DNA from: Candidatus Chisholmbacteria bacterium RIFCSPHIGHO2_01_FULL_52_32
Lineage (GTDB): Bacteria; Patescibacteriota; Microgenomatia; UBA1400; Chisholmbacteraceae
Direction: 5' to 3'
DNA length: 64,000 nt
NCBI GenBank assembly: GCA_001816585.1
Contig: MHCJ01000007.1
Span: 2,062-66,061 of the forward strand
Shown here: positions 1,676 through 55,300 of the stretch, in pieces
Layout of the letters: every line of letters starts with the position of its first letter
Position numbering within the stretch: the first letter of the stretch is position 1
Notes under the pieces: generated by a model
Seen by the model: the letters and a program-made list of their open reading frames with translations, nothing else
What the model was told of the DNA's origin: nothing
The model's database searches: none
Position numbers and translations under genes: made by a program

Positions 1676-1694
1676 ATCCCCATTCGGACAGGAG

Positions 1695-1726: not shown

Positions 1727-1770
1727 GGCCTGAGCATTGAAAAATAAAATCTGATTGATCGCTCAAAAGA

Positions 1771-3386: not shown

Positions 3387-3420
3387 GCCCGTAAAGGGCT
3401 AGAGAAAAGGAGAAGGGACG

Positions 3421-12697: not shown

Positions 12698-12728
12698 AAA
12701 AAAACCGCCTCTTAAAGCGGTTTTCTTG
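12698..12728 (+). terminator. intrinsic terminator AACCGC-loop-GCGGTT plus T-run
   Basis: follows the stop of 11726..12655; preceded by an A-run, so possibly bidirectional. Confidence 0.55.
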
Positions 12729-12756
12729 TTTCTTGTTTCTTGTTACTCCTGACAGC

Positions 12757-12828: not shown

Positions 12829-14345
<1,517 letters not shown>

Positions 14346-14393
14346 AAATTTGACGCAGTCAAATCCGCCAACTGGCGGACAGACCACGTCTGA

Positions 14394-14574: not shown

Positions 14575-15906
14575 TTAATTCTTCTCGGATGAATCTTTTG
14601 ATACTTGCTGCTCAACGATAATGCCGCCTCCCAAGCATTCATCTCCGAGATAAAACACCGCTGCTTGCCCTGGAGCGATTCCCCGCTGGGGCTCAGCAAG
14701 TTCCACAAACAACTTTGAATTTTTCACTTTTAACTTTGAACTTATCAGCTCTCCTCCGTGTCTGATTCGCACCTGTAACCCTTTCATGACTGTTAATTCT
14801 TCATTCTTGATTCCGTTGATGAAATGAAGGTCGGCTACCTGAAATTTATCGCGGAATGTTTCTGCTCCAAATCCGACAATCAGCTGATTCCGAACAACAT
14901 TTTTACCCACCACATAGAATGGCGGTATCGCATGTCTCAACTTGTCACTTGTTACTTGTACCTTGTTGCTGATACTGAACCCATGCCTCTGTCCGATCGT
15001 GTAGAACCAAACACCTTTGTGCTTTCCAATAACATCCCCATCGGTATCGACCACATCACCGGTCTTCTCGTTGATTCTGCGCCGTAAAAACTCGCCGACA
15101 TCGACTTCTCCGACAAAACAAATCCCGACCGAGTCTGGTTTATCCGCAGTCAATAACCTACGTCTCTTCGCCTCTCGCCGAACCTGTTTTTTTGTCAGAT
15201 GTCCGACCGGAAACAAAACGTGAGCCAACTGCTCCTGCATTAGCGGGTAGAGGAAATAACTCTGATCTTTCTTGGCATCAATTCCCTGTAAAAGATGATA
15301 CATTCCGATTCCATCTCGGTTGTGGTGAGCGGGGAGACGAACAAATTTGCGCTGGTCACCCAGACCAGGCATATCGCCTGGAAAGACTTCCGGTTTGGCT
15401 CGAAGTTTCGAACGCAATCGTTGGTGACCAAGCAAATTTCCGTTCGGCGACCTCAGCTCACCGAATCCTATCCTCGCGTAATGCCCTGTTGCTACATAAT
15501 CAAACCCGTGGTTCAAAGCCCATCGCAAGAAGAGCCCGAATTTAATCTCCCGATTGCACACCACATCCGGATTCGGCGTCCGTCCAGCTTCGTACTCGCG
15601 ATAAAAATACTCGATGACCTTCTTCCGGTATTCCTTCTGAAAATCCAGCACCTGAAATGGAATCCCAAGCCCAAGGGCTACGCTCAATGCATCCTTCCGA
15701 TCCTCCGGAGCCCGGCACCCCGGTTCATTCCAACACTCAAGGAAAACACCGGTAACATCATAGCCTCGCTCCACAAGCAAAGCCGCCGAAACCGAGGAAT
15801 CTACCCCGCCTGACATACCCACAGCGACACGTCTGCCCTGAACCGTTCCGCCAACTGGCGGATCTGGTTCACGGGCTACTCGAGGGAATTTCTGCCTCTT
15901 CTCCAT
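14575..15906 (-). CDS. mnmA: tRNA-specific 2-thiouridylase MnmA
   Basis: 443 aa; PP-loop SGGVDSS; conserved NPDVVCN and GHYAR motifs; about 30-aa N-terminal extension. Confidence 0.9.
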   Translation of the reverse strand: MEKRQKFPRVAREPDPPVGGTVQGRRVAVGMSGGVDSSVSAALLVERGYDVTGVFLECWNEPGCRAPEDRKDALSVALGLGIPFQVLDFQKEYRKKVIEYFYREYEAGRTPNPDVVCNREIKFGLFLRWALNHGFDYVATGHYARIGFGELRSPNGNLLGHQRLRSKLRAKPEVFPGDMPGLGDQRKFVRLPAHHNRDGIGMYHLLQGIDAKKDQSYFLYPLMQEQLAHVLFPVGHLTKKQVRREAKRRRLLTADKPDSVGICFVGEVDVGEFLRRRINEKTGDVVDTDGDVIGKHKGVWFYTIGQRHGFSISNKVQVTSDKLRHAIPPFYVVGKNVVRNQLIVGFGAETFRDKFQVADLHFINGIKNEELTVMKGLQVRIRHGGELISSKLKVKNSKLFVELAEPQRGIAPGQAAVFYLGDECLGGGIIVEQQVSKDSSEKN

Positions 15907-17921: not shown

Positions 17922-19382
17922 TCAAGGTAGGTCAACTGGCTGCAAATCCAACCGAAAGTAAACTTCATTCACTATCGTCCTCGCCCATTCGTTGAGTCGA
18001 TTGTGCGTTCCGTCCAAAATCGTTCGTCCGAACACCAATTTTCCGCAGCGAAGGTGTGGCTTCACCAAATCTCCCCTCCTTGGCACCCCATCGGTAAGCA
18101 CAAACTCATCAGGATGTTGTATATCAAGCGGTGTCACTCCCTCCCTCACCCACTCGACTCCAAACTTTTCACTTTTCACTTTAAACTTTGAACTTAACTT
18201 ATAGACTCCCGCCTTCAAATCACCTTTCACTTCTGCCCACCGTTCCGGATCCTTATTATGTAAGACCAAATGCGCCCCCTCCTTCGGCGCCTTCAACGAT
18301 CGATCAACCGCTGCAAAGTCCATCGTATAGTTGATGTCCAAGAACTCTAAAAGCTGGAACACATCAAATGGGATTTCCCCCTTCTGGAGCTGAAGAAACG
18401 AATAGACCGGGAACGCTCCGGTGTAGCGCGGGTTGATCTCATTGGGATAAACCTTCCCTGACTTAGCATCAATCATCAAATCCACCCCAAAAACACCTTT
18501 GTACCCCTGATGCGCCATCGCTTCACCCAGGTTTCTGGCAATCCGCTCCGCCCCTTTCTGTATCGCTGAAGAATAATGTCGGAAGCTCCAATCGTGTCCC
18601 CGCCAGATTCCCCGCCGCTCCCTCAGATTCACAAGCTCCGGAACATCAAGAATCTGCGTCTGCACCAAACCAGTTAACACTCCGTACCGAGTTACACAAC
18701 CCGTTATCGACCCAGAAATCCCATCAATGAAGCGACTGACGTTCACCAACTGCGTTCGAGAAAGATCCAATCGCCCTTTTGCATCCTCCAAAAATGTCCG
18801 AAAGTCAGAAATATCATTGATAAAATACGTTCCTTTTCCTCCACCTTCCGAGAAACTCGTAAGCTGAAACACCAACTGCCTCCCTAGCCTCTTCCTTAGC
18901 CTCCGGTAGTCATCCTCGGTAAATTTCTCAACCTCCCACTGCTCCCCCGGGATTGGAGCCAGTCCGAGTCGTCTAACCAGTGTAAAGAACGCATCCTTAT
19001 CCTCAAACTGATCCCGGATCGCCCGCGGATTGGCAAGAAGCAGCCATCCTTGCTCCTGACAAAACCGATCCACCCACTCCGTATGCTTATAGGAAAAGAC
19101 GGCTATCTTCCCCAGGCTTTGCAAATACCGTAAAACCCCGGGATGCTTAAGAATGGCCTGCGTGTTGAGTTTTTCAACCTCATTTGGAGAGAAGTCGCGC
19201 TGCACTGCTCGGATCGGGCAAAACCGCTTCAGGAAAGAGAGATCGCTCCCCCACTTGTAGCAGACAATCTCGTAGTTTGATGTCACCAAAGCCGGAGAAA
19301 TCCTCCCAAACGCCGTCAGTCCAATTCCCACAATATGGCGCCCTGCCCCATCAAGAAGCTTACAGTAATCCTGAAATTCCAT
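17922..19382 (-). CDS. large ATP-grasp superfamily enzyme (pre-ATP-grasp plus ATP-grasp core)
   Basis: 486 aa; the segment GVFGVDLMIDAKSGKVYPNEINPRYTG is typical of the ATP-grasp C-terminal subdomain. Confidence 0.7.
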   Translation of the reverse strand: MEFQDYCKLLDGAGRHIVGIGLTAFGRISPALVTSNYEIVCYKWGSDLSFLKRFCPIRAVQRDFSPNEVEKLNTQAILKHPGVLRYLQSLGKIAVFSYKHTEWVDRFCQEQGWLLLANPRAIRDQFEDKDAFFTLVRRLGLAPIPGEQWEVEKFTEDDYRRLRKRLGRQLVFQLTSFSEGGGKGTYFINDISDFRTFLEDAKGRLDLSRTQLVNVSRFIDGISGSITGCVTRYGVLTGLVQTQILDVPELVNLRERRGIWRGHDWSFRHYSSAIQKGAERIARNLGEAMAHQGYKGVFGVDLMIDAKSGKVYPNEINPRYTGAFPVYSFLQLQKGEIPFDVFQLLEFLDINYTMDFAAVDRSLKAPKEGAHLVLHNKDPERWAEVKGDLKAGVYKLSSKFKVKSEKFGVEWVREGVTPLDIQHPDEFVLTDGVPRRGDLVKPHLRCGKLVFGRTILDGTHNRLNEWARTIVNEVYFRLDLQPVDLP

Positions 19383-22544: not shown

Positions 22545-22688
22545 GAGACCAGGCAATTGGCACCGGACACTCACAACCTATTTCTCTCTCATGTTACAAT
22601 CTCCCCGCAAGAGTAGCAGTCATCCATTTGCTATTTGCCATTAGCCATAAGCTATACGCTATAAGCTATCTGCAATCTGCATATTCCT

Positions 22689-29854: not shown

Positions 29855-30042
29855 GGAACTGGTTTCAAGACTCTGCAGGTACTCTGAAACTTGGGTTCAG
29901 CTTTCTTAAGTAATTGTGAGTTTTGAAACGACTTAACTTTAACAAATTATTGTTCTCATAGATGCGGCCGCACATTTGACAACAATATTTATCGTAAACA
30001 TATATGGAATAACCAAAGGATCAACCCTTTGAGGTGTGCTTT

Positions 30043-30063
30043 CAGTCTTCAGTCTTCAGTCTT
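30043..30063. repeat. heptamer tandem repeat (CAGTCTT)x3 spanning the stop codon of the GT4 gene
   Basis: perfect 3 copies; the TGA stop lies inside the repeat. Confidence 0.8.
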
Positions 30064-31197
30064 CAATTGCCTCCTCGTAAATCCGAAACAGCTTCTTTTG
30101 CATAACAGATAGACTGAAATGCGCAAGGTAGCGCCGCCGAGCCGCCTGCCCCAACCTCCCTCTTAAGTCCGCGTCCAAAACTAGCCGTTCAAGTGCCTCC
30201 GCCAAATCGCCCACGCTTCCAGGCCGCACCAACAACCCCGTCTGTCCATCAACGACCATCTCGGGCAACGCTCCCAGCCGTGAGGCCACCACAGGAATCC
30301 CAAAGCTCATCGCCTCACAAACTACCAGGCCATACCCTTCAGCCTTCGGCGGAACATGGACCAAGATATCCGCCGCCGGGTAAAACTCCGAAACCAGCCG
30401 GTCATAGGAAACAAAATCATGCTGCGTAATCCCGTAAGATTTGTCATTTGTCATTTGTAATTTGTAATTTTTAGGCACCGGTCCCAAAATCGTCAACCGC
30501 ACCGTATCTCCCAACATCTCTCTCACTTTCCGGTATGCCTCCCACAAAATCATTCCCCCCTTCCGCTCAAACCACACTCCGGCAAAAAGTAGTCGAACCG
30601 GACCAACCTTTCGAACCGAAGGTTCCGCTCGATCCGATAGGCCCGGATAGATAACCGCGATTTTTGCGGGATCAGCTCCCAGTGCAATATGCTCCTGTTT
30701 GGCAAACTCACTCATCACCAAGAGTTTCGAGAAATTGCCCAGGGAAAGATCCTGGTCATAAACGGAAAGGAGGGAATGCATCGCCCGCCGCAATCCGTAC
30801 GTAGCCTCGATGCGAAGCCTTCCCTGACCAAAGTATTGAGAAAGCCCCCAACGATTGGGGATACTGTCCCCCATGACCACGGGAATGTGTCGCAAAGACC
30901 CCGAAAGCCGAAGTGTATACGCATGGCAGTGGACAAGATCGAACTTCCCCAAAATCTCAACATCAACGGTTCCTGCCGAAAGGGGCAGGATACGAAACTT
31001 CACCAGCGTCCGAAGAAAAGCGTGGAAGGAGCCATACCGAACCTCCCCCTTCTTAAGCGCGTCCGTATGGTGCACGTACGTCACGCCGGGTGGCGGATTG
31101 GCAAGCAGCGTCCGGGTATAGGTATTCTCCCCACCCATCAGAAACTTGAGGTTCAAAGGAACATCTGGATCGAGCGGTGAAATCAAAAGCACCCGCA
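30056..31197 (-). CDS. GT4 (group 1) glycosyltransferase
   Basis: about 380 aa; EGYGLVVCEAMSFGIPVVA motif; start assigned to ATG MRVLLISPL, with an alternative GTG at 31213; carries an internal heptamer tract. Confidence 0.85.
30439..30473. repeat. in-frame heptamer tract (ATTTGTC)x2 (ATTTGTA)x2 ATTTTTA inside the GT4 coding sequence
   Basis: 5 consecutive 7-mers encode the NYKLQMTNDK linker; the unit length is not divisible by 3. Confidence 0.8.
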
Positions 31198-31223
31198 TAA
31201 TAAAGCGCAGCACTCTGCTCTCT

Positions 31224-31272
31224 GCTATTCGCTATTCGCTATTCGCTATTCGCTATTCGCTATTCGCTATTC
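31224..31272. repeat. perfect heptamer tandem repeat (GCTATTC)x7 in the divergent intergenic or 5' region
   Basis: 7 perfect copies plus degenerate CTCTGCT flank copies; lies 10-30 bp upstream of the GT4 start codon on the minus strand and about 80 bp upstream of the rmlD-like gene. Confidence 0.9.
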
Positions 31273-31351
31273 GCTTTCAATCATATCCTATCAGACCAAC
31301 CAATAATCGTCTTTCTTGTCATACCCAGGGAAAGTATGCTACCCTGCCGCT

Positions 31352-32254
31352 ATGCGCATCCTTCTCACCGGCTCAAACTCGCTCCTCGGAAAAGCGCTTT
31401 GGGAAACAGCTCCGAAAGTATCCTCTCTCATCCTCACCTTCCTCCCTTCCGCTGAGCCAAGCCAAACACGATGGGAAACAGCACCGATGGATATCACCGA
31501 CAAAGCTGCGGTGAAACACACCCTCGCCCGCTTCAAACCCGATTGGATCATTCATTGTGCCGCCCTGTCCGATGTCGATTCCTGCGAGAAAAACCCCGAC
31601 CAAGCCTATGCCGTCAATGTCTTCGGCACGGAGAACCTCGTGAACACGGCAAAAAAGGCTGGCTTACGCTTTCTCTTTACCTCCTCAAACGGTATTTTTG
31701 ACGGTAAACGCACCCTCTATACCGAACGCGACAAGCCCCATCCGCTGCATACTTACGGAAAAACGAAGCTTGAAGCCGAACAGCTCATCACTCGCTCCAA
31801 AGTCCCATCCATAATCGTCCGTCCGAACGCCATGTATGGCTGGCCCCCCGTTGGTGCCCGCCAAAACCCGGTCACCTGGGCAGTGGAGCAGTTGAGTGAA
31901 GGCATCACCCTCGATATGGTGAGCGACACCTTCATAAGTCCGCTCTACGCGCCATCAGCGGCAGAGGCTATTTGGAAACTCGTTAAGACCGACACAAGAG
32001 GCATATACCACATCGCAGGGAAAACCCGCGTCAGCCGTTTTACGTGGACGAAGGAGATCGCCAGGGTTTTCGGCTTCAACCCCTCCTTGGTCCGGCCGGT
32101 AAAAAGTGGTTTCTTTCCGAACCTCGCACCACGCCCAAAAGACACCTCATTCTCAACTGCCCGCCTTGAACAAACCATCGATTGGAAGCCGCTCACGCTG
32201 AAACAGGGACTCATGAGAATGAAAAAAGAGTCAGATCAATTGCTCCACTGTTAA
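31352..32254 (+). CDS. dTDP-4-dehydrorhamnose reductase-like (RmlD family) NAD(P)-dependent sugar reductase
   Basis: N-terminus MRILLTGSNSLLGKAL with a Rossmann GxxGxxG; RmlD-like length; an alternative upstream ATG at 31316. Confidence 0.7.
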   Translation: MRILLTGSNSLLGKALWETAPKVSSLILTFLPSAEPSQTRWETAPMDITDKAAVKHTLARFKPDWIIHCAALSDVDSCEKNPDQAYAVNVFGTENLVNTAKKAGLRFLFTSSNGIFDGKRTLYTERDKPHPLHTYGKTKLEAEQLITRSKVPSIIVRPNAMYGWPPVGARQNPVTWAVEQLSEGITLDMVSDTFISPLYAPSAAEAIWKLVKTDTRGIYHIAGKTRVSRFTWTKEIARVFGFNPSLVRPVKSGFFPNLAPRPKDTSFSTARLEQTIDWKPLTLKQGLMRMKKESDQLLHC

Positions 32255-32308
32255 ATTGTTAAATTGCTGTAGTGAAAAAAACAATAGAACAATACAACAA
32301 TAAAACAG
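32252..32308. promoter_or_regulatory. operator-like motif pair TTAAATTGTTAAATTG ... AACAATAGAACAAT
   Basis: same bipartite motif recurs at 38426..38497; directly upstream of the GTG start of the 32316 gene. Confidence 0.45.
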
Positions 32309-32315
32309 TCAGACG

Positions 32316-33347
32316 GTGAAGAAACAGTTCATTGCGAACAAAAGAGCTGAGGTTGAGTTTCGCACTCGGCTTCAAGAGGGTGCGTACGTAAGCCGCGAGC
32401 CGAGCGGCAATGAACTCCTCTCCGAACTCACGAAACGGGTAGAAAAAGCAAGAATCATCTTCCGTGCGCACGAACAGGAAACCAGCTTTTCTCCATTCCT
32501 TGAGATCGGGGCCGAGCGCGGCCAGCGTTCCATGCTTCTTGCGTCGGAATTCCGCGCCCAAGGATTCATGCTCGATCTCTCCCTTGACAGCCTACGGGAA
32601 GCCGAAGCGCTGCGCCGCCCCCTGAAGCTCAATAAAATCCCGCAAAGCGTCGTAGCCGATGCCTACAACCTTCCTTTTCCAAACAATTCGTTTGCCTTCA
32701 TCATTGCATTCCAGACCATCCACCACTTTCCTGATCCCGAACCTATCCTCCGGGAAGTCAATCGGGTCCTTGCCCCCGGAGGAGTATTTATCCTCGACGA
32801 AGAACCGATTCGCCAAAGCTTCAACGTGCGCCTTTGGCGAAGGCCGACCATACTTCGCTGGTGGGAAAAGATACTTAAAGCAACTATCCTCCTCCACTTC
32901 CTCTCCGAAATCGGAAAAAGCGAAACCGATGCCGGCATTATCGAGACATCATTCAGTCTTCCTACTTGGGAAAAGGCATTGAACGTCTTCGAAACAGCAA
33001 AAGCCGCCCTCACCGTCTTCCCATTCGGACCAACCGAGACAATATCCAAAACCGGTCAAGAAAAATGGCTTAATCCTTCATTGCCAACCCGAATCCTCCT
33101 CAAACTTCTTGGGGGGAACATCCAAGCCATCTGTACAAAATCTCCTAATAAGCGAAGAAGCTACAAGCTACAAGCTAAACATCTGCTCCCACCATTCGTC
33201 TGTCCTTCCTGCCCTCCCCACCCGCTATTGGAACAACGGCTGGGGAGCTGGTATTGCCTAACCTGCAAAAATACCTATCCTGTTAAAGACGGCATCCCGA
33301 TCCTGATTGAACGCACACTCCGCCAAACCCTATATCCTAATGCCTAA
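32316..33347 (+). CDS. class I SAM-dependent methyltransferase with a C-terminal Cys4 zinc-ribbon
   Basis: 343 aa; LEIGAERG motif I, LPFPNNSFAFI, LAPGGVFIL; C-terminal CPSC...CLTC. Confidence 0.8.
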   Translation: MKKQFIANKRAEVEFRTRLQEGAYVSREPSGNELLSELTKRVEKARIIFRAHEQETSFSPFLEIGAERGQRSMLLASEFRAQGFMLDLSLDSLREAEALRRPLKLNKIPQSVVADAYNLPFPNNSFAFIIAFQTIHHFPDPEPILREVNRVLAPGGVFILDEEPIRQSFNVRLWRRPTILRWWEKILKATILLHFLSEIGKSETDAGIIETSFSLPTWEKALNVFETAKAALTVFPFGPTETISKTGQEKWLNPSLPTRILLKLLGGNIQAICTKSPNKRRSYKLQAKHLLPPFVCPSCPPHPLLEQRLGSWYCLTCKNTYPVKDGIPILIERTLRQTLYPNA

Positions 33348-33366
33348 ACCCTACATCCTAATGCCT
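33325..33366. repeat. 21-bp tandem duplication AAACCCTAYATCCTAATGCCT x2 spanning the stop of one gene and the start of the next
   Basis: two copies with one mismatch; each copy contains an in-frame ATG for the downstream GT2. Confidence 0.85.
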
Positions 33367-34155
33367 TCCATCTCCATCATCATTCCAACGTCGGGAGACA
33401 GTCCCCATCTTGAGGACTGTCTCTCCTCAATCAAAAAACTTGACTACAATCCCAAACACATCCAAACAATCGTCATCACCAATCGCGATCTAAAAAAGAC
33501 AGGTCGATCCTTTAGCTTCTCACGCGCCGTCAATCTTGCCGCAACGAAGGCGCGCGGTGAGTATTTCCTCATCACCAACGACGATATCGTCTTTGCTCCG
33601 GCATCCCTCAAATCCTTGGTCAAGGCCAAGAAGCGCAATCCCAATACCATTCTCGGAGGAAAACTCTTTGATAAAACGACACACGAACCCGCTGCAGCGG
33701 GATACACCATGAATCTTTTGCTTGGAATCATTAGACCGGTTTTCACCGGTAACAAGCCAACACCCTGCGACTGGGTTTCAGCTTGTGCCCTCTTGCTAAG
33801 TCAAGAGCTCTGGAAAAAGCTCCAAGGGTTTGATGAACGCTTTGCTCCCGGTTTTTTCGAGGACGCGGATTTGTGCCTCCGTGCCGGAACCCTCGGCGTC
33901 AAAAGCCTTCTCATTCCTGAAGTCGAGCTTCTCCATGCCCAAACCGCCACCTTCAACCGCGATAAATCAAAGAAGTACGAGTATTGGTACCGAAATAAAA
34001 TCCTTTTCCTGAGGAAACACGCCTCACCCATCAAGCTTGCCACAAACCTCCTTGTGCAGTATGCTCTCTTCACTCCTTTCAGAGGTCTGATTCTGCATGA
34101 CGGCCGTTTCCTACCTGCCCTCAAAGGTCTCACATGGAATCTGAAACACCTCTAA
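33361..34155 (+). CDS. GT2 family glycosyltransferase
   Basis: start MPSISIIIPTSGDS is typical of GT2; alternative in-frame starts at 33340 (ATG) and 33307 (TTG) lie inside the duplicated 21-mer. Confidence 0.8.
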   Translation: MPSISIIIPTSGDSPHLEDCLSSIKKLDYNPKHIQTIVITNRDLKKTGRSFSFSRAVNLAATKARGEYFLITNDDIVFAPASLKSLVKAKKRNPNTILGGKLFDKTTHEPAAAGYTMNLLLGIIRPVFTGNKPTPCDWVSACALLLSQELWKKLQGFDERFAPGFFEDADLCLRAGTLGVKSLLIPEVELLHAQTATFNRDKSKKYEYWYRNKILFLRKHASPIKLATNLLVQYALFTPFRGLILHDGRFLPALKGLTWNLKHL

Positions 34156-34230
34156 ATGTACTTTCTCACGAACGATCGTCGCATCGTTAGGTACATTTCG
34201 ATAAGAAGAATTGTTTAGGAAAAATATTCG

Positions 34231-36090
34231 ATGAATATTGCTATCGTCTCCGCAGGTTTAAGCACCCATTCTGGCCTCCGCGCCCCAATTGAGCTTGCCA
34301 AGGCCCTCAAAGCCCTCGGCCACCAAATCACGTTCTATGCTCTCTCCAAAGGAAAAGACAACCCGGCAGTCAACGATCTTCGAAGAACAGGGATTCGCGT
34401 TTCCGTCGTAAACGCCCGGTCTCTGCTTACACAAATCCTAATCCTGAAAAAAAAGCTTGAGGCTGGCAATCATGACATTATTTCGGCACACTGTTTCGTA
34501 AGCCAGCTCCTGGCTGCGCGCCTCACAGGTATCCCGGTCGTTTGGACCTACTACGGCACCCAGTTAAACGTCCTTCGCGAACACGTGTTCCCAACCAAGA
34601 ATACGGTGATTGACACAATCGATAGCCTCCTCAACCTGACTATCCGCCTCAAAACGCAAGCAATGGCTTGGCTGGCCGACGAAATCCTGTCGATTAGCAA
34701 TAGCGCAAAGCAGGAGCTTAAAAAGCTCTACGGCCGCAAACCCTTTGCCACCGTCCCCCTCGGCTCCGCCCCACCATCCTTCACAACAAAACCGCTTTCT
34801 CTCTCTCTACGCCCTACGCCCTACGCCCTAAGCCCTAAAATCATTCTCTCCGTCAGCCGTATCACTCCCTACAAAGGCTTTCATCTCCTCATCAGAGTGG
34901 TAAACAGGCTTTCAAAACGCATTCCCGATCTGAAACTTGTGATCGTCGGCTCTGCCCCCCTTCCCCGGTATCTCTCCTACCTTAAAAAAATCTCCGGTTC
35001 CTCTGTGGAAATTATCGTCAATCCAAGTGACGCCAAACTGGTCACGCTTTTCCGACAAGCCAAAATCTACGCGACGGCGGATGAGTACCTGTTCTACGGA
35101 CTCCCGATTTGGGAAGCCTCATCATTTGGCATCCCCTCTGTTGCACTCAAACGCAAAGCCGCTTCCGAAGCGATCGTTCACGGAAAAACCGGCTTTCTTG
35201 CAAAAAACGAGGCTGATCTCGAAGAGTACCTCGAACGGTTACTTACGAATCCAAAACTCTGTCAGCGTATGGGGGAAAAAGCCAGAGAACTCGCTTCCCA
35301 TCGGACCTGGGGAAAAACCGCCCGAAGCTACGAAGGGATACTCCGACAAGTCCTGACCAAACTCTATCTCCCCCTGATCCCGACGGGCTTCTATAGCCTA
35401 ATGAAAAATCTTCAAACGCAAAGAAACCTCACCCTTGCCGACCTCGGATCAGATACGGGAATGAATCTTAAGATTCTGGGAAAACTTGATCTCCTCCGCC
35501 CCATCGCCAAGTTGATAGCTGTCGACATCGATACCAAAAATCTCAAACCCCTCGCCAGAGAAGATCCCAAAGTCCAAATACTCCAAGCGAACCTCACCAG
35601 CCTAAGAAGGGTCCCGAAAAACTCCGTTAACACCATAATCTGTACACAAGTCATTGAACACATTGAAAATCAACAAAAAGCGCTCTCGGAAATTGCCAGG
35701 GTTCTCAAACCGGGAGGAAAGCTGTTCTTAAGTTCGGTTGCAAAAAAATGGTATGGCCTCTACTGGCACAACAATAAAAAGGGAAAAATTGTCGTCCACC
35801 CAGACCACGTCCATGAATTCAGCAGTGTTGAGGAGTTTATTGACCTGATTCAGTCATCAGGACTAACCGTGATCAGATCTGAGCAACTTCCGGGTAGGTT
35901 TCCGCTTTTTGATTACTTCCTTCGTGCGATAAACCTTCTTGCAGGAAAACCAACTTCAGCCGAACACCGGGATTTCTACCTAAAACATCCTCGCCTCATC
36001 CGCTGGCACAAACATCTTTCCTTCCTTCCCATCCCCGGATACTCGATTGTTGAGGCACTCGCTCAAAAACCAATGAGGGAACAGAAATAA
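34231..36090 (+). CDS. GT4 glycosyltransferase fused to a C-terminal class I SAM methyltransferase
   Basis: 619 aa; GT4 region residues 1-370, then the MTase motif DLGSDTGMN...VLKPGGKLFL; contains a (CTACGCC)x3 tract. Confidence 0.8.
   Translation: MNIAIVSAGLSTHSGLRAPIELAKALKALGHQITFYALSKGKDNPAVNDLRRTGIRVSVVNARSLLTQILILKKKLEAGNHDIISAHCFVSQLLAARLTGIPVVWTYYGTQLNVLREHVFPTKNTVIDTIDSLLNLTIRLKTQAMAWLADEILSISNSAKQELKKLYGRKPFATVPLGSAPPSFTTKPLSLSLRPTPYALSPKIILSVSRITPYKGFHLLIRVVNRLSKRIPDLKLVIVGSAPLPRYLSYLKKISGSSVEIIVNPSDAKLVTLFRQAKIYATADEYLFYGLPIWEASSFGIPSVALKRKAASEAIVHGKTGFLAKNEADLEEYLERLLTNPKLCQRMGEKARELASHRTWGKTARSYEGILRQVLTKLYLPLIPTGFYSLMKNLQTQRNLTLADLGSDTGMNLKILGKLDLLRPIAKLIAVDIDTKNLKPLAREDPKVQILQANLTSLRRVPKNSVNTIICTQVIEHIENQQKALSEIARVLKPGGKLFLSSVAKKWYGLYWHNNKKGKIVVHPDHVHEFSSVEEFIDLIQSSGLTVIRSEQLPGRFPLFDYFLRAINLLAGKPTSAEHRDFYLKHPRLIRWHKHLSFLPIPGYSIVEALAQKPMREQK
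34807..34841. repeat. heptamer tract (CTACGCC)x3 CTAAGCC CTAAAAT inside coding sequence
   Basis: encodes LRPTPYALSPK; the same TACGCCC unit recurs at 51036-51050 and 55281-55300. Confidence 0.8.
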
Positions 36091-37010
36091 TGAACCAAAG
36101 CAGCCTCACAACCATCCTTCATTCCCTCAACTTCGACCGTCAATTTCTCTTCAGCCCATTTCCGAAAACCCTCAGCGACCGCCTGGAATTTATTGTGAGA
36201 AAATACTCGCTTCTGTTGAACCATCACTACTTGGGAAGACCGGTGAGACTCGGAGATTCCAAAGTGAGGATCAACGGACGCTTCTTCTACTACGAATCCA
36301 CCCTGGGCATTGCCCCCTATCAAACTATGCTTGTCAACTTCGAAAACCGCTATCTTCCCTATCTCCAAAATCTGCATAAACCGCTCGTTATTGACATCGG
36401 CGCCCACATCGGGTTTTTCTCCCTCACGGCGGCAAAGCTTTGCAAACCATCCCGCATTTTCGCCTGCGAACCGCTTAGGCTTACCTTCAGCCTCCTCAAA
36501 AAAAATTGCACTGGGGAAAAAGCCATCATCCCAATCCACCTCGGATTTTGGAACAAGCCAACGCGCCACAAAATGTTCTATACGGAAAGCTTCCTTGCCT
36601 ATAGCTCCCTCTTTCCCGAACGCTTCACCTGGAACAACCACCCAATGACGCAAACAGTGAAGGTTACAACCCTCGATGCATTCGCAAAGCGGAACCACAT
36701 TGATCGAATTGATCTCTTAAAGATCGATGCCGAAGGGGCCGAAGAGCAAATTCTTAAAGGGGCAAGCCAAACGCTGACAAAAACGATCTATCTTCTCATC
36801 GAATGCTCCTTCGACCAGCTTGGTGGAAGTACGATGAGCTCTCTGGTAAAACATCTCCATGGCAAAGAAAAGAATTTTCAACTCATTGAAATTGGTGATA
36901 TTCGGCGCACTCCCCAAAGAGAACTCGCGACCATCGATTTCTTCTTCAAGAACCTTCGATTTAAAGGGGCGAGGCAAAAACAATACCCTTTACCCGCAAG
37001 CATCGGCTGA
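36090..37010 (+). CDS. FkbM-family methyltransferase
   Basis: 306 aa; IDIGAHIGFF, ACEP, KIDAEGAE motifs; 4-bp overlap with the upstream gene. Confidence 0.8.
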   Translation: MNQSSLTTILHSLNFDRQFLFSPFPKTLSDRLEFIVRKYSLLLNHHYLGRPVRLGDSKVRINGRFFYYESTLGIAPYQTMLVNFENRYLPYLQNLHKPLVIDIGAHIGFFSLTAAKLCKPSRIFACEPLRLTFSLLKKNCTGEKAIIPIHLGFWNKPTRHKMFYTESFLAYSSLFPERFTWNNHPMTQTVKVTTLDAFAKRNHIDRIDLLKIDAEGAEEQILKGASQTLTKTIYLLIECSFDQLGGSTMSSLVKHLHGKEKNFQLIEIGDIRRTPQRELATIDFFFKNLRFKGARQKQYPLPASIG

Positions 37011-37034
37011 CTAAGCTAAAATAACTGACAAATC

Positions 37035-38405
37035 ATGAAAGGAAAGCCCTTAACTACCATCATCCTTCTTGGCATATTCTTGAGAGTCATCTTCCTCTTC
37101 CACCACAATATCTGGCTTGATGAATCCATAAGCATCCTCATCTCACGGCTCGCAATCCCCAGGCTCCTCTCAGTCGCCAGCTACGACAACAACCCACCGC
37201 TCTTCTATCTCTTACTCCACTTCTGGATGAAGGTTTCCCAAAATCCCATTTGGCTTCGCACGCTATCTCTCCTCTTCTCGACAGCGACGATTCCCGCAGT
37301 CTTCCTCCTTGCACGCTCTCTTGCAAATCAGAAAACCGCGGTCCTTTCATCACTGCTCGTTGCGATCATGCCTGCGCAGCTCTACTATTCCGGCGAGATC
37401 CGCTTCTACTCTCTTCTAATCCTCCAATCCGCTCTCCTTTTCTCAATCGCTCTCAGAAAGAACAAACCCCAGGGAGTTCCGCTTACCGCCCTTCTCACCG
37501 CAACTATCCTTACCCACTATACCGGTATCCTAGGAATTGCTTTGGCATTCTTCCTGATATGGAAAAAGTCAAAGCGACACATTTGGGTATGGATAACAAG
37601 TGCTGCTCTCGCTCTTCTCCTAAGCGCTCCTTGGATAACGCTAACGCTCTCAAAGCCACATCCGACACCCTGGACTCCGAATCCCCTCTTATCTGTTGCG
37701 TTCATGCCGATTGCGGCGACCACCGGTCTGGTGGGAATTGCTCCGCCCTCTACGCTCTCCCTTCTCCATGCCGCCCTCCGCTTCCTGATCGTCATCGTGG
37801 GCTTACTCTTTCTTTTGGCATTGGGAGCTCAACTTCGAACACCAGCGTCCAAGCTCACCGCCATAGTCGCAGTCATACTGGTCCTTTTGGCCGCAAGCCT
37901 CTTCCCCATCCTCTCGCCCCGCCTCATTCTTCCCTTCACACCCCTGCTCTATGTCTTCGCTGCAACATTCCTTGAGAAAAGTGCCTCCCTTCGCCTGGTA
38001 TTTCTTACCGCCACGACGGCCATAAGCGTCGCAAGTTTCCTCGTCCCAATGCGAGGGCCGCTGATCCAAACCGCCCTCGGAGCGTACCGAAACTCCGCCT
38101 TCCCCACCTACCACACCGCCCTGACCACGTTCTATCCTACTTCGGTTCTCCGAACAAACTCGGATATCTACCTCGGCCCCCGCACCTTTCCCACTCAAAT
38201 GACCGACGTAATCGGTGGCACACCGAAACCCATTGAATCAGTCGCCGAGAACCCCACATTTACACTCATTATCGATGAAAAAAATACCGATGAAAAAACG
38301 AAAAATGCCATAAAAGAACAACTTAAGTTTACACACGAGATGACAAAGCGATTTGATGCTGACTCAATCACCGTCCAAATGTATGAAAGAAAATCCAACC
38401 CCTAA
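37035..38405 (+). CDS. GT-C membrane glycosyltransferase, GT39/ArnT/PMT-like
   Basis: 456 aa; about 11 TM helices; N-terminal IWLDESISI ... NNPPLFY motif region typical of PMT_2/ArnT-like enzymes. Confidence 0.7.
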   Translation: MKGKPLTTIILLGIFLRVIFLFHHNIWLDESISILISRLAIPRLLSVASYDNNPPLFYLLLHFWMKVSQNPIWLRTLSLLFSTATIPAVFLLARSLANQKTAVLSSLLVAIMPAQLYYSGEIRFYSLLILQSALLFSIALRKNKPQGVPLTALLTATILTHYTGILGIALAFFLIWKKSKRHIWVWITSAALALLLSAPWITLTLSKPHPTPWTPNPLLSVAFMPIAATTGLVGIAPPSTLSLLHAALRFLIVIVGLLFLLALGAQLRTPASKLTAIVAVILVLLAASLFPILSPRLILPFTPLLYVFAATFLEKSASLRLVFLTATTAISVASFLVPMRGPLIQTALGAYRNSAFPTYHTALTTFYPTSVLRTNSDIYLGPRTFPTQMTDVIGGTPKPIESVAENPTFTLIIDEKNTDEKTKNAIKEQLKFTHEMTKRFDADSITVQMYERKSNP

Positions 38406-42027: not shown

Positions 42028-42720
42028 TCAAAAGGATTGATAAGGCTTATTCCCAAAGATATAGAGCGTCCCGCAGAGCTTTTTAAAGGGAAAAAACAAC
42101 GGGCCGCGAAACACCGGGAAATTCCACTGTTCAAGTGTACGGCGAACTCCGGGAAGGGGCGGAAGCCCGTGAAGGATGGCTCCTTGAACACGTAAATCAC
42201 GAAATCCAGCCTCGAAAAGACGTTTCGCCCAGTAGCGGGATGCACGAACGTTCACATGCGTAGGGTCATCAGGAAAAATCCTCGTCGTCACCGATCGTAG
42301 CCAACCCTGGTGGTTTGGCGTCGTGATGAACAGGACGCCGCCTGGCCGGAGCACACGAAAGGCTTCGGAAAAAAGAAACATCGGAGAATGAAGATGTTCA
42401 ACAACATCAAAAATTGTTATTGCATCAAACCAATCATTTTTAAATGGAAGCCGTTGGCGAGCCACGTCTACCTTCTTAAGGACACCGTGTACTCGCCTTC
42501 TGGCTTGAGCCAGTGCGTATCCGGAAATATCAACTCCAGAGACTTTAGCCCCCCTCTTTTGCACAGAAGATAGAAAGTCCCCAAAGCCGCACCCGACATC
42601 TAACACGCGTCGCAAAGAAGCAACCTTTTCAAACAGGATCTCCGCACGGGCTTTGGAGATGAGTTCCCCCTCTCTCGATGCGTTATAAATCCGCTCAAAA
42701 TATTCCCGACCATAGTTCAT
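42028..42720 (-). CDS. class I SAM-dependent methyltransferase
   Basis: 230 aa; VLDVGCGFGDF motif I, DVVEHL, LRPGGVLFITTPN. Confidence 0.85.
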   Translation of the reverse strand: MNYGREYFERIYNASREGELISKARAEILFEKVASLRRVLDVGCGFGDFLSSVQKRGAKVSGVDISGYALAQARRRVHGVLKKVDVARQRLPFKNDWFDAITIFDVVEHLHSPMFLFSEAFRVLRPGGVLFITTPNHQGWLRSVTTRIFPDDPTHVNVRASRYWAKRLFEAGFRDLRVQGAILHGLPPLPGVRRTLEQWNFPVFRGPLFFPFKKLCGTLYIFGNKPYQSF

Positions 42721-42813
42721 AGGGTATAGGGTATAGGGTATAGGAATTAGGGTTTAGGAATTAGAAATTTGATGTCATTCGTACTGTAATTTGTTATTTG
42801 TAATTTGAAATTT
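42721..42813. repeat. two heptamer tracts: (AGGGTAT)x3 plus 4 degenerate AGGNNTT units, then (GTAATTT/GTTATTT/GTAATTT/GAAATTT)
   Basis: begins at the nucleotide after the ATG of the methyltransferase (minus strand), so it occupies the RBS and promoter region. Confidence 0.85.
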
Positions 42814-42834
42814 GTCTCCCCCTCACCATCCTTC

Positions 42835-50990: not shown

Positions 50991-51065
50991 CCTCTCCTCT
51001 CCTCTCCTCTCCTCTCCTCTCCTCTCCGCTCCGCTCTACGCCCTACGCTCTTAGCCCTCTACCCT
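50991..51065. repeat. pentamer (CCTCT)x7, then CCGCT x2, then heptamers CTACGCC CTACGCT CTTAGCC CTCTACC in a convergent intergenic region
   Basis: perfect pentamer run; heptamers are of the same TACGCCC family as 34807 and 55281. Confidence 0.85.
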
Positions 51066-52790
51066 CTCATAGATCTCTATCCCCGGACCTGGTCGACTCA
51101 AGCCCGAAAATCCGACAAATGGGACGTAAAAACGATCCTGCTGGTCATAGATTTGTGCCCCAGAACCGGCATCAACCCCTGCAAATCTGGCCACCAAGAG
51201 ATACGACCGTTCAAGTATTTCTGGGATTCCTTCAGGAACGGTACTGTATCCCCTAAGCGGCGACCGCTCAACGACGATGTAGCCAGGCAAACCCTCTTCT
51301 TCATCACCCGCATAGAAAAACTTCTTGCGAGAAGGATCATACGTCCATAAGACAAAGCCCTCATGTCCTCTCTCATCTCGAATCCGTATCTCCCGCTCTA
51401 AAATCCGGGCCCGCAGTAGGTTTCCCATTCCCCCCAGAGCTTCCTTCTCCCCAACCTTCCTCTCCAAATCTTCTTTCGTCGGCGGGAGAAGGAGAGTCGC
51501 CGCCGTCTGGTATACGCTGTTCTGATTTGCAAGGTGTGAATCCAAGAACGAAAGAACAAGCAACCGGCTATCCGTTCGGGACAGGAGGCGGTCAAACTCA
51601 AAAACGGTACGTGCCGACGGAAGAACAATAATAACGGCCAGCATAATCTCAACCAACATCCGCCGTCGTCCGCGAAGCTTGAGTAAGGTGCCGACCGTCC
51701 GAACGAACACCGCCCCGAGAATGCAGAGAAAGGGCACGATCGGCACCATGTAGCGTGTCATCACCGCGTAACCCTTCCCGGCAAGTACAAAGTAAAAGAT
51801 GGGGAACGCAAGGAAAACAACCGCCTTTGCAGGATAACGACGCAGAAAAAACAACATGCCAAGCATGGAGGCCGCAAATAAGCTCCAACCCAAGCCATAA
51901 AAAAGTGCCACCTGGACATTAAACCACCATCCCCTTCCGAGAAAGACATTCCCCCACACAACATCCAGGTTCCTGGCATTCAACATCACATCGGAAAGGA
52001 AGGTTTTCAAATCCAATAACGCAAACGGCACCCCGATAAGAAAAGCCAACAGAAACGCTGCCCCAAAAAGTGTTATTCGCCTCAACACAAAAAGGGTAAT
52101 AGCTTCACTTCCTGCCCGCCGCGGTGCCCGAAAAAATGACGCAAGAGCAATCGGAAGAACCAGTAGGATTCCGATGTACTTCGTTGCCGCCGCCAGGCCC
52201 GCAAATACCCCGGATAAAACAACGCTTTTCCTGCCTCTCTCCGTGAGAGAGCGGATGATGAAATAAAAGGAAACAAGGAGCCAAAACGTGGCTGCCACAT
52301 CCACCGTTCCGAAATGGGATTCCCGAACATGAAGATATGCCAAACTCAAAAAGAAACTCGAAAGGGATGCCGTCCGCCGATCAAAAAGCCGCTTTGCAAT
52401 AAAGTAGAGCAAAACGACGCTCAAAACCCCGAAACCGACCGAAACAAGCCTGGCCATGAGATAAAAAACACTTGGATTCAGCCGGTATTCCAAACCTAAG
52501 TCCGCAGGTGCCTGATACCGTCCCGAAAAAATCCCGACGGTAAAGTAGAGTCCGTAAAGCAGAAACAAAAAGTACATGGGAAACGTGGGATAGATAAACG
52601 TATTTGGATTGAGCGACCCTCCCCCGAAGCCAAGCGCGACAGTGACAAGATACGCCTCATCCGGCCGGGCAATCTCCATCGGCAATCCAAAGCGAATTCC
52701 CCATAGGCGCACAGAGGCTGCCAGAACCACGGTGGCAATAAGAAGAGAATGACGACGAAAGGCAAGGGCAACTCCCAGAAGACTCCACAT
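51051..52790 (-). CDS. GT-C membrane glycosyltransferase, GT39/ArnT-like
   Basis: 579 aa; about 12 TM helices; N-terminal R..D.L loop region; overall ArnT/PMT_2-like topology. Confidence 0.7.
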   Translation of the reverse strand: MWSLLGVALAFRRHSLLIATVVLAASVRLWGIRFGLPMEIARPDEAYLVTVALGFGGGSLNPNTFIYPTFPMYFLFLLYGLYFTVGIFSGRYQAPADLGLEYRLNPSVFYLMARLVSVGFGVLSVVLLYFIAKRLFDRRTASLSSFFLSLAYLHVRESHFGTVDVAATFWLLVSFYFIIRSLTERGRKSVVLSGVFAGLAAATKYIGILLVLPIALASFFRAPRRAGSEAITLFVLRRITLFGAAFLLAFLIGVPFALLDLKTFLSDVMLNARNLDVVWGNVFLGRGWWFNVQVALFYGLGWSLFAASMLGMLFFLRRYPAKAVVFLAFPIFYFVLAGKGYAVMTRYMVPIVPFLCILGAVFVRTVGTLLKLRGRRRMLVEIMLAVIIVLPSARTVFEFDRLLSRTDSRLLVLSFLDSHLANQNSVYQTAATLLLPPTKEDLERKVGEKEALGGMGNLLRARILEREIRIRDERGHEGFVLWTYDPSRKKFFYAGDEEEGLPGYIVVERSPLRGYSTVPEGIPEILERSYLLVARFAGVDAGSGAQIYDQQDRFYVPFVGFSGLSRPGPGIEIYERVEG

Positions 52791-55216: not shown

Positions 55217-55236
55217 TCTCTATTCGTAAATCATAA

Positions 55237-55300
55237 ATCCTAAATCATAAATCACTCTCTACCCTCTGCTCTACGCGCTAAGCCCTACGCTCTTCCTGTA
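55237..55300. repeat. heptamer tract AAATCAT AAATCCT AAATCAT AAATCAC, followed by TACGC-type heptamers
   Basis: 20 bp upstream of the GT2 start on the minus strand; the downstream part encodes the SVGLSA C-terminus of the epimerase. Confidence 0.8.

What the first reader, a model, noticed from the sequence alone, without database searches (positions are those of the whole stretch)
34807..34841. In-frame (CTACGCC)x3 heptamer tract in the GT4-methyltransferase fusion gene; the same unit recurs at two other gene ends
The tract encodes LRPTPYALSPK within the GT4 domain. The same TACGCCC-type unit reappears at 51036-51050 (convergent intergenic) and at 55281-55300, where it encodes the C-terminus of the epimerase.

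The same 7-mer repeated at three separate sites in one locus suggests either a shared slippage-prone motif or repeated illegitimate recombination at these sequences. Both are relevant to glycan-gene diversification.
Basis: seen in the sequence. Interest (0 to 1): 0.6.

Follow-up and report, generated by a model that had tools for sequence, protein, structure and literature searches.

The report
Seven-base repeat inside a glycosyltransferase hinge
The tract is a real seven-base tandem repeat in the flexible hinge of a sugar-transferase gene, but it is one of about eighteen such repeats across this groundwater bacterium's genome, so it belongs to a known kind of slippage-made repeat rather than being a signal special to the sugar-gene cluster.

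Summary
Window 34807-34841 reads (CTACGCC)x3 + CTAAGCC + CTAAAAT. It is in frame in a 619-aa GT4-methyltransferase gene and encodes LRPTPYALSPK. Related degenerate arrays sit at 51036-51056 and 55271-55291, where they supply the last residues and stop codons of two minus-strand genes.

The motif is not specific to this locus. The window (Candidatus Chisholmbacteria, CPR, GCA_001816955.1) holds 14 strict period-7 arrays against 0.05 in shuffles, and about 18 in all, with many different units. They are as dense outside the glycan genes as inside, and most lie between genes or at gene ends. This matches the known excess of heptanucleotide simple repeats in prokaryotes.

The tract lies in the low-confidence loop between the two Rossmann halves of the GT4 domain. 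Every assembled contig covering it has the same copy number, with one exception: contig L021 is 100% identical downstream but diverges exactly at the tract. An intergenic array (31224-31275) also differs between strains.

One result was unexpected. Orthologues only 40-42% identical carry CCCTAnn heptamers at the same hinge.

Best reading: a slippage-maintained coding microsatellite in a permissive hinge. Phase variation and recombination-junction roles remain untested.

The parts
34807..34841 (+). Coding heptamer array: (CTACGCC)x3, CTAAGCC, CTAAAAT. Encodes LRPTPYALSPK, residues 193-203.
   Evidence: It is the only (C3N1-7)x4 motif in the window. A change of 1 or 2 units gives a stop at codon 198 or 205; a change of 3 units stays in frame.
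34798..34808 (+). (TC)n run directly upstream of the array; encodes LSLSL.
   Evidence: Read directly from the sequence.
34231..36090 (+). GT4 glycosyltransferase fused to a class I methyltransferase, 619 aa. The array lies in the loop between the two Rossmann halves.
   Evidence: Pfam. Family alignment. AlphaFold: GT4 pLDDT above 90, falling to 65 and 52 over residues 181-200 (below 50 at 189-194), then strand 203-208.
50991..51036 (+). (CCTCT)x9 pentamer array in the convergent spacer, adjacent to the second heptamer site.
   Evidence: No length difference in strain contig L023.
51036..51070 (+). Degenerate CTACGCC-type heptamers (CTACGCC CTACGCT CTTAGCC CTCTACC CTCTCAT). Their reverse complement gives the last residues (ERVEG) and the TAA stop of the PMT_2 gene 51051-52790(-).
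   Evidence: One SNP in L023 at 51065.
55257..55300 (+). Degenerate heptamers (CTCTACC CTCTGCT CTACGCG CTAAGCC CTACGCT). Their reverse complement gives SVGLSA and the TAG stop of the epimerase 55271-56278(-).
55227..55254 (+). (TAAATCA)x4 array between the GT2 gene and the epimerase, abutting the previous array.
31224..31275 (+). (GCTATTC)x7.4, the longest heptamer array. Intergenic, between divergent genes. Differs between strains.
   Evidence: L003 has diverged units and L007 has diverged units plus a 26-nt hairpin insert.
30439..30470 (-). (ATTTGTM)x4.6 inside the GT4 gene 30056-31213(-). Encodes KNYKLQMTNDKS in a variable loop.
33158..33177 (+). (AAGCTAC)x2.9 inside the methyltransferase gene 32316-33347. 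Encodes RRSYKLQAKH in the variable linker before a Cys-rich C-terminal segment (CPSC...CLTC).
33325..33366 (+). 21-nt unit x2 built from CCTAnnn heptamers. Spans the stop of the methyltransferase gene and the start region of the GT2 gene.
30041..30065 (+). (TTCAGTC)x3.6 overlapping the stop codon of the GT4 gene 30056-31213(-).
42719..42815 (+). ATAGGGT/TAGGAAT arrays (reverse complement ACCCTAT, the same CCCTAnn family) and (TGTAATT)x4.4, in the spacer between two minus-strand genes.
22624..22669 (+). Intergenic heptamer array whose unit drifts from CCATTTG to AGCTATA.
14711..14967 (-). Three AACTTTG/ACTTGTC-type arrays in the C-terminal part of ORF 14575-15906(-), outside the glycan genes.
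18162..18195 (-). ACTTTTC-type array inside the ATP-grasp gene 17922-19382(-). Encodes SSKFKVKSEKF.
12722..12744 (+). (TTTCTTG)x3.3, intergenic, next to the 3' end of the 16S rRNA gene.

Best explanation
The tract is a heptanucleotide simple-sequence repeat (a microsatellite with a 7-nt unit) that sits in frame in the hinge between the N- and C-terminal Rossmann halves of a GT-B-fold GT4 glycosyltransferase.

Shown: it is one of about 18 period-7 arrays in 64 kb of a Candidatus Chisholmbacteria genome. These arrays lie mostly between genes or across gene ends.

Inferred mechanism: strand slippage, or unequal exchange between adjacent units, duplicates and deletes 7-nt units and so keeps re-homogenising each array. 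Within a gene, only arrays that have no stop codon in any of the three sense frames, and whose net length keeps the frame, survive. That confines them to loops that tolerate any sequence. Three units equal 21 nt, or 7 codons, and read the unit in all three frames (CTA CGC C|CT ACG CC|C TAC GCC gives L R P T P Y A). The product is a short proline-rich hinge peptide with no specific role.

The two other CTACGCC-type arrays are ordinary gene-end arrays of the same unit family. Because CTA is the complement of TAG, the perfect CTACGCC tandem carries TAG stops in all three frames of the opposite strand; the degenerate copies at these two sites supply the epimerase's TAG stop and the PMT_2 gene's TAA stop.

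As a side effect, arrays are hot spots of strain-to-strain difference.
For: Period-7 excess:
- Perfect runs: 9 for period 7 against 0 for periods 6 and 8-12.
- Imperfect arrays: 14 against 0.05 in shuffles.
- TRF lists about 20 period-7 rows with different units.

Location: 10 of 18 arrays are intergenic or overlap a start or stop codon, although 87.5% of the window is coding.

Not locus-specific: arrays are equally dense in the rRNA and ATP-grasp part of the window, and 2 more lie in 10 kb of left flank.

Permissive site:
- The tract falls in the most length- and sequence-variable columns of the family alignment.
- It falls in the only low-confidence dip of an otherwise confident GT4 model.
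- The in-gene arrays at 30439 and 33158 also sit in indel-prone loops.
- No RNA structure is predicted (z = 0.43).

Turnover: orthologous hinges carry the same CCCTAnn family with a different dominant unit in each lineage.
- Window: CTACGCC.
- L032: CTAAGCC/CTAAACC.
- L033: CTATACC.
- L021: CTAAACC/CTATACC.
- P0004: the peptide LYPKPYTLNPN fits CTATACC/CTAAACC.

Hypervariability: the array at 31224-31275 holds 10 of the roughly 65 variant positions seen among strain contigs.

Literature: heptanucleotide repeats are the most abundant class of 5-11-nt repeats in most prokaryotic genomes, and polymerase slippage has been proposed as the cause (Mrazek et al. 2007, as summarised in PMC4679880). They are over-represented between genes and at stop codons (PMC4692102).
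Against: - Slippage was not observed directly. The tract has the same copy number in every assembly.
- Three perfect copies is a short array, for which slippage should be slow.
- Building a 21-nt in-frame array in 7-nt steps requires frameshifted intermediates, or a single 3-unit event.
- The persistence of period-7 structure at the same hinge in orthologues only 40-42% identical is more than a purely neutral model predicts. One of them, L032, has no other period-7 array in 22 kb.
- Only about 83 kb of a contig of 1.16 Mb was examined.
Confidence: 0.6

Rival explanations
1. Contingency locus. The tract is a phase-variation switch. Slippage by one or two units shifts the frame and turns the GT4-methyltransferase off, so the surface glycan varies within the population, as in the phase-variable glycosyltransferases of host-adapted pathogens.
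For: - The unit length is not a multiple of 3, and the array lies inside a glycan gene.
- A change of 1 or 2 units gives an immediate stop at codon 198 or 205, because the last two units carry TAA in both alternative frames. A change of 3 units stays in frame.
- The intergenic array 31224-31275 does vary between strains.
Against: - No copy-number variant was found among the contigs covering the tract (L001-L009, L020, L027) or among the members of the 90% protein cluster.
- Only 3 perfect units are present, and the tract is mid-gene rather than near the 5' end.
- Similar arrays occur in non-surface genes such as the ATP-grasp gene.
- Assemblies are consensus sequences, so minority variants would be invisible.
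Confidence: 0.12
2. Recombination junction. Arrays of shared heptamer families act as short patches of homology at which alleles, or the two halves of the GT-B enzyme, are exchanged between strains. This would shuffle acceptor-binding and donor-binding halves and neighbouring genes.
For: - L021 is 100% identical to window 34843-37092. Its first 124 nt are unrelated, stay in frame, and carry CTAAACC/CTATACC heptamers, so the break is exactly at the tract.
- L007 is about 90% identical upstream and 99.96% identical downstream of the array 31224-31275. L003 is unrelated upstream of the same array.
- So 3 of the 4 identity breaks seen lie at arrays, which cover 1.3% of the compared sequence.
Against: - All three cases are the last 77-124 nt of metagenome contigs. 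Repeats are known to end contigs, and chimeric ends cannot be excluded.
- Homology of 14-21 nt is short for RecA-dependent exchange.
- No full-length alternative allele was recovered.
- The fourth break (L006, near 38890) is not at an array.
- No evidence shows exchange between the three CTACGCC sites.
Confidence: 0.18
3. Structured-DNA element. The four CCC tracts (on the template strand, GGG CTTA GGG CGTA GGG CGTA GGG) form a G-quadruplex or i-motif that modulates transcription or replication through the gene, like the GGGNATC heptamer repeats of Xanthomonas and Nostoc.
For: - The tract is the only (G3N1-7)x4 or (C3N1-7)x4 motif on either strand in 64 kb; 3.0 are expected in block shuffles.
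- It has exactly four C-tracts, the number preferred in PMC4692102.
- The CCCTAAA-like units resemble telomeric repeats (my own knowledge).
Against: - The orthologous hinges in L032 and L033 have only three C-tracts and no canonical motif.
- Most other arrays in the window have no G- or C-tracts at all.
- ViennaRNA with quadruplex energies did not choose a quadruplex for the G-rich strand.
Confidence: 0.05
4. Protein-level constraint. The hinge needs a P-x-P-Y-x-L-x-P peptide, and the DNA periodicity is a by-product of conserving that peptide.
For: Peptides of the form LxPxPY[STA] recur in several family members: the window protein, P0004, P0017, P0008 and P0119. With score >= 4.0, 13 of 126 linkers match against 5 expected; the 13 include three near-identical sequences of the window's own protein cluster, so about 10 independent matches.
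Against: - Most of the family, including the closest full-length relatives P0002, P0003 and P0005, has unrelated Lys-rich or other linkers.
- The same synonymous choices (Leu = CTA, Pro = CCT then CCC) are kept in all three DNA sequences. Peptide selection alone does not explain this.
- The model shows the segment as a low-confidence coil.
Confidence: 0.05

Closest known systems
Long simple sequence repeats with heptanucleotide units in prokaryotic genomes (Mrazek, Guo and Shah 2007, as summarised in PMC4679880 and PMC4692102)
   Same: Tandem 7-nt units strongly over-represented relative to other unit lengths. Many different units. Mostly intergenic or at gene ends. Slippage proposed as the cause.
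   Different: The genome here is a small CPR (Candidate Phyla Radiation) genome, a group in which I found no report of such repeats. Copy numbers are low (2-7). Eight of 18 arrays lie inside open reading frames.
Cyanobacterial STRR (short tandemly repeated repetitive) heptamers, first reported in Calothrix PCC 7601 (cited in PMC4692102)
   Same: Heptanucleotide tandem arrays dispersed through the genome, mainly non-coding, function unknown.
   Different: STRR comprise a few defined units at high copy number in heterocystous cyanobacteria (my own knowledge). Here the organism, the units and the copy numbers all differ, and the cyanobacterial HIP1 palindrome is not enriched.
TAACTGA direct repeats of marine Beggiatoaceae, cyanobacteria and Bacteroidetes (PMC4679880)
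   Same: Heptamer direct repeats of 2-6 copies near gene starts and ends. A few lie inside ORFs, where they are translated as 7-residue repeats.
   Different: One dominant unit there, against many unit families here. Most of those repeats lie just upstream of start codons, and a translational role was proposed for them.
GGGNATC G-quadruplex-forming heptamer repeats of Xanthomonas and Nostoc (PMC4692102)
   Same: Heptamer units carrying a G3/C3 tract. Four units preferred. Often overlap stop codons.
   Different: Only this one array in the window has four C-tracts. It is coding, whereas those repeats avoid coding regions. Quadruplex formation was not tested here.
Contingency loci: phase-variable glycosyltransferase genes with intragenic non-triplet repeats (for example the tetranucleotide repeats in Haemophilus and Neisseria lipo-oligosaccharide genes; my own knowledge, and the phase-variation background in PMC4679880)
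   Same: A non-triplet repeat inside a glycan gene. Slippage by one unit would truncate the protein.
   Different: No copy-number variation was seen. Few copies, mid-gene position, and an environmental CPR organism rather than a host-adapted pathogen.
Tandem repeats of Borg elements that create disordered protein regions (PMC9879509)
   Same: Lineage-specific, fast-evolving tandem repeats that enter ORFs without breaking them and add flexible peptide segments.
   Different: In-ORF units in Borgs are always divisible by three and much longer. Here the unit is 7 nt, so the frame is kept only by the total length.

Membership tests
Heptanucleotide long simple sequence repeats (prokaryotic LSSR) | Head-to-tail copies of a 5-11-nt unit, here 7 nt, with high identity | tested here: met
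   TRF: period 7, 4.4 copies, 95% matches. Three perfect units.
Heptanucleotide long simple sequence repeats (prokaryotic LSSR) | Period-7 arrays in excess over chance and over other unit lengths in the same genome | tested here: met
   14 arrays against 0.05 in shuffles; periods 6 and 8-12 give 0-2. Tested on 64 kb plus 19 kb of flanks only.
Heptanucleotide long simple sequence repeats (prokaryotic LSSR) | Preference for intergenic regions and gene termini | tested here: met
   10 of 18 arrays lie in or at the 12.5% of the window that is non-coding.
Heptanucleotide long simple sequence repeats (prokaryotic LSSR) | Copy-number polymorphism through slippage | tested here: inconclusive
   The array 31224-31275 differs in unit sequence and content between strains. 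No pure copy-number change was seen at any array. Reads were not available.
Cyanobacterial STRR | Cyanobacterial host | tested here: not met
   Proteins are identical to Candidatus Chisholmbacteria MAG entries. The window is 100% identical to GCA_001816955.1. HIP1 is not enriched.
Cyanobacterial STRR | One of the defined STRR units at high copy number | tested here: not met
   None of the units listed by TRF is an STRR unit as I recall them (CCCCAGT, TTGGTCA, CAACAGT).
Contingency locus (phase-variable gene) | Intragenic or promoter repeat whose unit is not a multiple of 3, so that unit gain or loss switches the frame | tested here: met
   A change of 1 or 2 units gives a stop at codon 198 or 205; a change of 3 units stays in frame.
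Contingency locus (phase-variable gene) | Observed ON and OFF length variants within or between populations | tested here: not met
   All contigs and cluster members that cover the tract have the same count. The apparent truncation P0049 is an N-gap in a scaffold. Minority variants are not testable without reads.
G-quadruplex-forming heptamer repeats (GGGNATC type) | At least four G3 tracts separated by short loops | tested here: met
   CCCTACGCCCTACGCCCTAAGCCC at 34812-34835, with the G-rich strand as template. It is the only such motif in the window.
G-quadruplex-forming heptamer repeats (GGGNATC type) | Quadruplex actually forms, and the motif is the recurrent genome-wide unit | tested here: not met
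   Other arrays lack G/C tracts. Orthologous hinges have three tracts. The quadruplex-aware fold did not choose a quadruplex. Biophysical formation is not testable here.
GT4 glycosyltransferase (GT-B fold), the host gene | Two Rossmann-like halves matched by Glyco_transf_4 and Glycos_transf_1, with the conserved first strand of the C-terminal half (ILSVSRxxPYKG) | tested here: met
   Pfam E = 2.8e-14 and 9.8e-28. Invariant S209 R210 P213 Y214 K215. Confident two-domain model.

The most novel reading that the evidence does not exclude
The hinge array is not a passive repeat. On this reading it is a long-lived, self-renewing heptamer microsatellite kept at the junction of the acceptor-binding and donor-binding halves of a CPR glycosyltransferase family, where it serves as the crossover point for swapping halves and neighbouring genes between strains. 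Related arrays at gene ends across the locus would act as the other module boundaries. This would be a repeat-based mechanism for combinatorial glycan diversification in bacteria with minimal genomes.
Probability: 0.12. Interest if true: 0.7.

Novelty: new member of a known kind. Interest (0 to 1): 0.38.

Why it matters
Taken alone, the tract is an ordinary product of a known mutational habit, and it should not be read as a glycan-locus signal.

Two points go beyond that. First, a Candidate Phyla Radiation genome joins cyanobacteria, Xanthomonas and Beggiatoaceae as a lineage rich in heptamer repeats, while a sister Chisholmbacteria genome lacks them. That gives a clean pair for asking what makes a replication or repair system prone to 7-nt slippage. 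Second, a non-triplet repeat persists at one coding site across deep divergence, and strain differences break at arrays. If confirmed with reads, this would show how such repeats shape protein hinges and allele mosaics in uncultivated bacteria.

Tried and rejected
- **Cyanobacterial origin.** I suspected this from the heptamers. It was rejected: HIP1 is not enriched and the proteins are Chisholmbacteria.
- **Frameshifted allele.** P0049 (397 aa) looked like one, but its contig L027 has an N-gap and an intact tract. P0050 and P0057 differ only at their C-termini, and I did not pursue them.
- **Searches that found nothing useful.**
  - GTDB genome scan with the protein: only distant hits.
  - Exact 26-mer of the downstream flank in JGI metagenomes: 0 hits.
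  - Protein scan of metagenome contigs: one partial contig lacking the tract.
  - Homology search with the L021 N-terminal peptide: nothing.
  - DNA for P0004: not retrievable.
- **Mobile-element inserts.** The 26-nt (L007) and 72-nt (L021) hairpin-rich segments might be small mobile elements. No convincing copies exist in the window. L033 shows the same two-block linker architecture, so the L021 segment looks like a native long linker.
- **RNA structure at the tract.** None (z = 0.43).
- **Promoter and terminator scan of 30000-36200.** At background level.
- **The CTACGGC x2 at 2767.** I first counted this as a fourth site, but it is part of a separate 53-nt dispersed hairpin repeat.
Full report
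**1. What is in the sequence.**
Window 34807-34827 is three perfect copies of CTACGCC. Two decaying units follow, CTAAGCC and CTAAAAT, and a (TC)n run precedes them. TRF reports period 7, 4.4 copies, 95% matches.

The tract lies in ORF 34231-36090(+), 619 aa. Pfam places Glyco_transf_4 at residues 21-178, Glycos_transf_1 at 201-353 and a class I methyltransferase domain at 404-500. The tract encodes residues 193-203, LRPTPYALSPK.

The two recurrences exist but are degenerate.
- 51036-51056 reads CTACGCC CTACGCT CTTAGCC.
- 55271-55291 reads CTACGCG CTAAGCC CTACGCT.

A two-unit probe with up to three mismatches gives 10 hits against 3.8 expected. No shuffle out of 100 reaches 10, and all hits are on the + strand. 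On the opposite strand these arrays provide the last residues and stop codons of the PMT_2 gene (…ERVEG, TAA) and the epimerase (…SVGLSA, TAG).

**2. The organism.**
Eight window proteins are identical to entries of Candidatus Chisholmbacteria MAGs from the Rifle aquifer (OGY17662.1 and others). The window is 100% identical to contig MHCM01000003.1 (1,158,385 bp) of GCA_001816955.1. This is a Candidate Phyla Radiation (Microgenomates) bacterium.

The tract is present in independent NCBI, ENA, JGI and Logan assemblies, so it is not an artefact.

**3. The tract is one case of a genome-wide habit.**
Perfect tandem runs number 9 for period 7 and 0 for periods 6 and 8-12. Allowing mismatches, there are 14 period-7 arrays against 0.05 in shuffles, while other periods give 0-3. 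TRF adds weaker arrays, for about 18 in all, with many different units: GCTATTC x7.4, ATTTGTA, TTCAGTC, ACTTTTC, TAAATCA, ATAGGGT and others.

Ten of the 18 lie between genes or across a start or stop codon, although 87.5% of the window is coding.

The arrays are not concentrated in the glycan genes. By the strict count, 7 fall in about 32 kb of rRNA, ATP-grasp and flanking sequence, and 9 in about 51 kb of glycan genes. Other unit families recur as CTACGCC does.

The habit is lineage-specific.
- The syntenic glycan locus of another Chisholmbacteria MAG (L032, GCA_001816915.1, 22 kb) has no period-7 array in TRF.
- A 52%-identical relative (L012) has one weak array.
- Two unrelated genomes have none.

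This pattern matches the published excess of heptanucleotide repeats among long simple repeats in prokaryotes, their intergenic and stop-codon bias, and the slippage explanation offered for them (PMC4679880; PMC4692102). I found no report of this for CPR bacteria.

**4. Why an out-of-phase repeat survives inside a gene.**
In the family alignment the tract falls in the columns that vary most in length and sequence. These lie just before the invariant ILSVSRxxPYKG strand.

An AlphaFold model is confident for the GT4 part, with pLDDT above 90. The exception is residues 181-200, where 10-residue means drop to 65 and 52 and fall below 50 at 189-194. A strand at 203-208 follows. The methyltransferase part of the model is poor and was not used.

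The other in-gene arrays examined, at 30439 in a GT4 gene and at 33158 in a methyltransferase gene, also lie in indel-prone loops.

CTACGCC has no stop in any sense frame, and three units make 7 codons. No RNA structure is predicted at the tract, and promoter- and terminator-like sites are at background level.

**5. Variation.**
Contigs from other samples are 99.9-100% identical to the window, without gaps, across the tract and across the two other CTACGCC sites. Members of the 90% protein cluster have the same hinge. An apparently truncated member is a scaffold gap. At consensus level there is therefore no length variation.

The intergenic array 31224-31275 does differ. L003 has diverged units and unrelated sequence upstream. 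L007 has diverged units, a 26-nt hairpin insert and about 90% identity upstream, against 99.96% downstream.

Contig L021 was fetched through the downstream gene, so it is unbiased for the tract. It is 100% identical to 34843-37092, but its first 124 nt are unrelated. They stay in frame and carry CTAAACC and CTATACC heptamers around a 72-nt hairpin-rich segment.

So three of the four identity breaks seen lie at arrays, which make up 1.3% of the compared sequence. All three are short contig ends, and repeats are known to end contigs. I treat this as suggestive only. Attempts to recover a full alternative allele failed.

**6. An unexpected finding.**
The orthologous hinge of distant homologues also has heptamers of the same CCCTAnn family.
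- L032 (P0008, 42% identical) reads CTAAGCC CTAAACC CGATAAC CGAAAAC CTATTAC.
- L033 (P0017, 40% identical) reads …CTACCCT AAACCCT… then TATACCC TATACCC TAGACCC TATTACT, which TRF calls at period 7, 3.4 copies.

In each of the three genes the gene-wide maximum of period-7 autocorrelation falls 10-15 codons before the SVSR motif. Only 0, 0 and 1 of 300 codon shuffles reach the observed value.

In L032 and L033 this is the only CTAnnCC doublet in 21-22 kb. The P0004 peptide (69% identical) fits CTATACC/CTAAACC units.

Closer relatives L012, L013 and L014 lack the feature, although L012 keeps a remnant. Across 126 family linkers, the peptide signature of such arrays is only modestly enriched.

I read this as a seed repeat that has persisted and been re-homogenised with a different unit in each lineage. 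Lateral spread of the hinge, or a DNA-level function, cannot be excluded.

**7. Other readings.**
A change of one or two units would stop translation at codon 198 or 205. The tract therefore has the form of a phase switch, but no variant was seen.

The tract is also the only four-C-tract (quadruplex-type) motif in 64 kb. That property is not shared by the orthologous hinges or by the other arrays.

**8. Verdict.**
Slippage-type repeats and possibly recombination breaks are involved, but there is no locus-specific motif and no observed length variation.

The tract is a new member of a known kind, heptanucleotide simple repeats. Its unusual features are that it is coding, sits at a protein hinge and appears to be long-lived.

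Noticed in passing
window 12833-14347(-), 1166-1238(-); L029 10730-14699: The rRNA operon is split. The 16S gene is separated from tRNA-Ile by about 11.6 kb of protein-coding genes. A second tRNA, the 23S gene and the 5S gene lie just beyond the left end of the window.
   Followed up: partly
window 2753-2805; L029 19574-19626: A 53-nt dispersed repeat, 96% identical between the two copies. It has a 7-bp stem (TGCCTGA...TCAGGCA) around a loop holding CTACGGC x2. The two copies are inverted, one on each side of the tRNA-23S-5S block (the window copy inside the 16S-to-tRNA-Ile spacer). Its function is unknown.
   Followed up: partly
window about 1450-3400: About 2 kb with no convincing long ORF and no Rfam match at gathering score, lying between tRNA-Ile and the next genes.
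   Followed up: no
L007 1-104 (equivalent to window 31181-31275): One strain carries a 26-nt insert, GATTGTCCTGAGCGGAGTCGAAGGAC, with a GTCCT...AGGAC stem inside the GCTATTC array. It recalls the small dispersed repeats reported inside heptamer arrays in Nostoc (from memory; I could not retrieve that paper). No copy exists in the window.
   Followed up: partly
window 50991-51036: (CCTCT)x9.2, one of the longest simple repeats in the window, lies in a convergent spacer. It has the same length in strain contig L023.
   Followed up: partly
window 54198-54224; L024: One strain scaffold has a 27-nt in-frame deletion in the gene 53751-54485. The neighbouring GT2 gene 54479-55216 is called as two ORFs in L023 and L024. 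In L024 this coincides with an N-gap.
   Followed up: no
window about 38890-39086; L006: In one sample's contig, identity drops from 99.9% to about 80% inside the 775-aa double-GT4 gene. This is a mosaic allele boundary that is not at a repeat.
   Followed up: no
window 1-64000: GC skew is negative (C exceeds G on the + strand) along the whole window, whatever the gene orientation.
   Followed up: no
window 5235-5408, 9327-9386, 11008-11056: Period-9 and period-21 coding repeats lie in the 58-60% GC segment at 4-12 kb. They are probably low-complexity acidic or Pro-rich protein regions.
   Followed up: no
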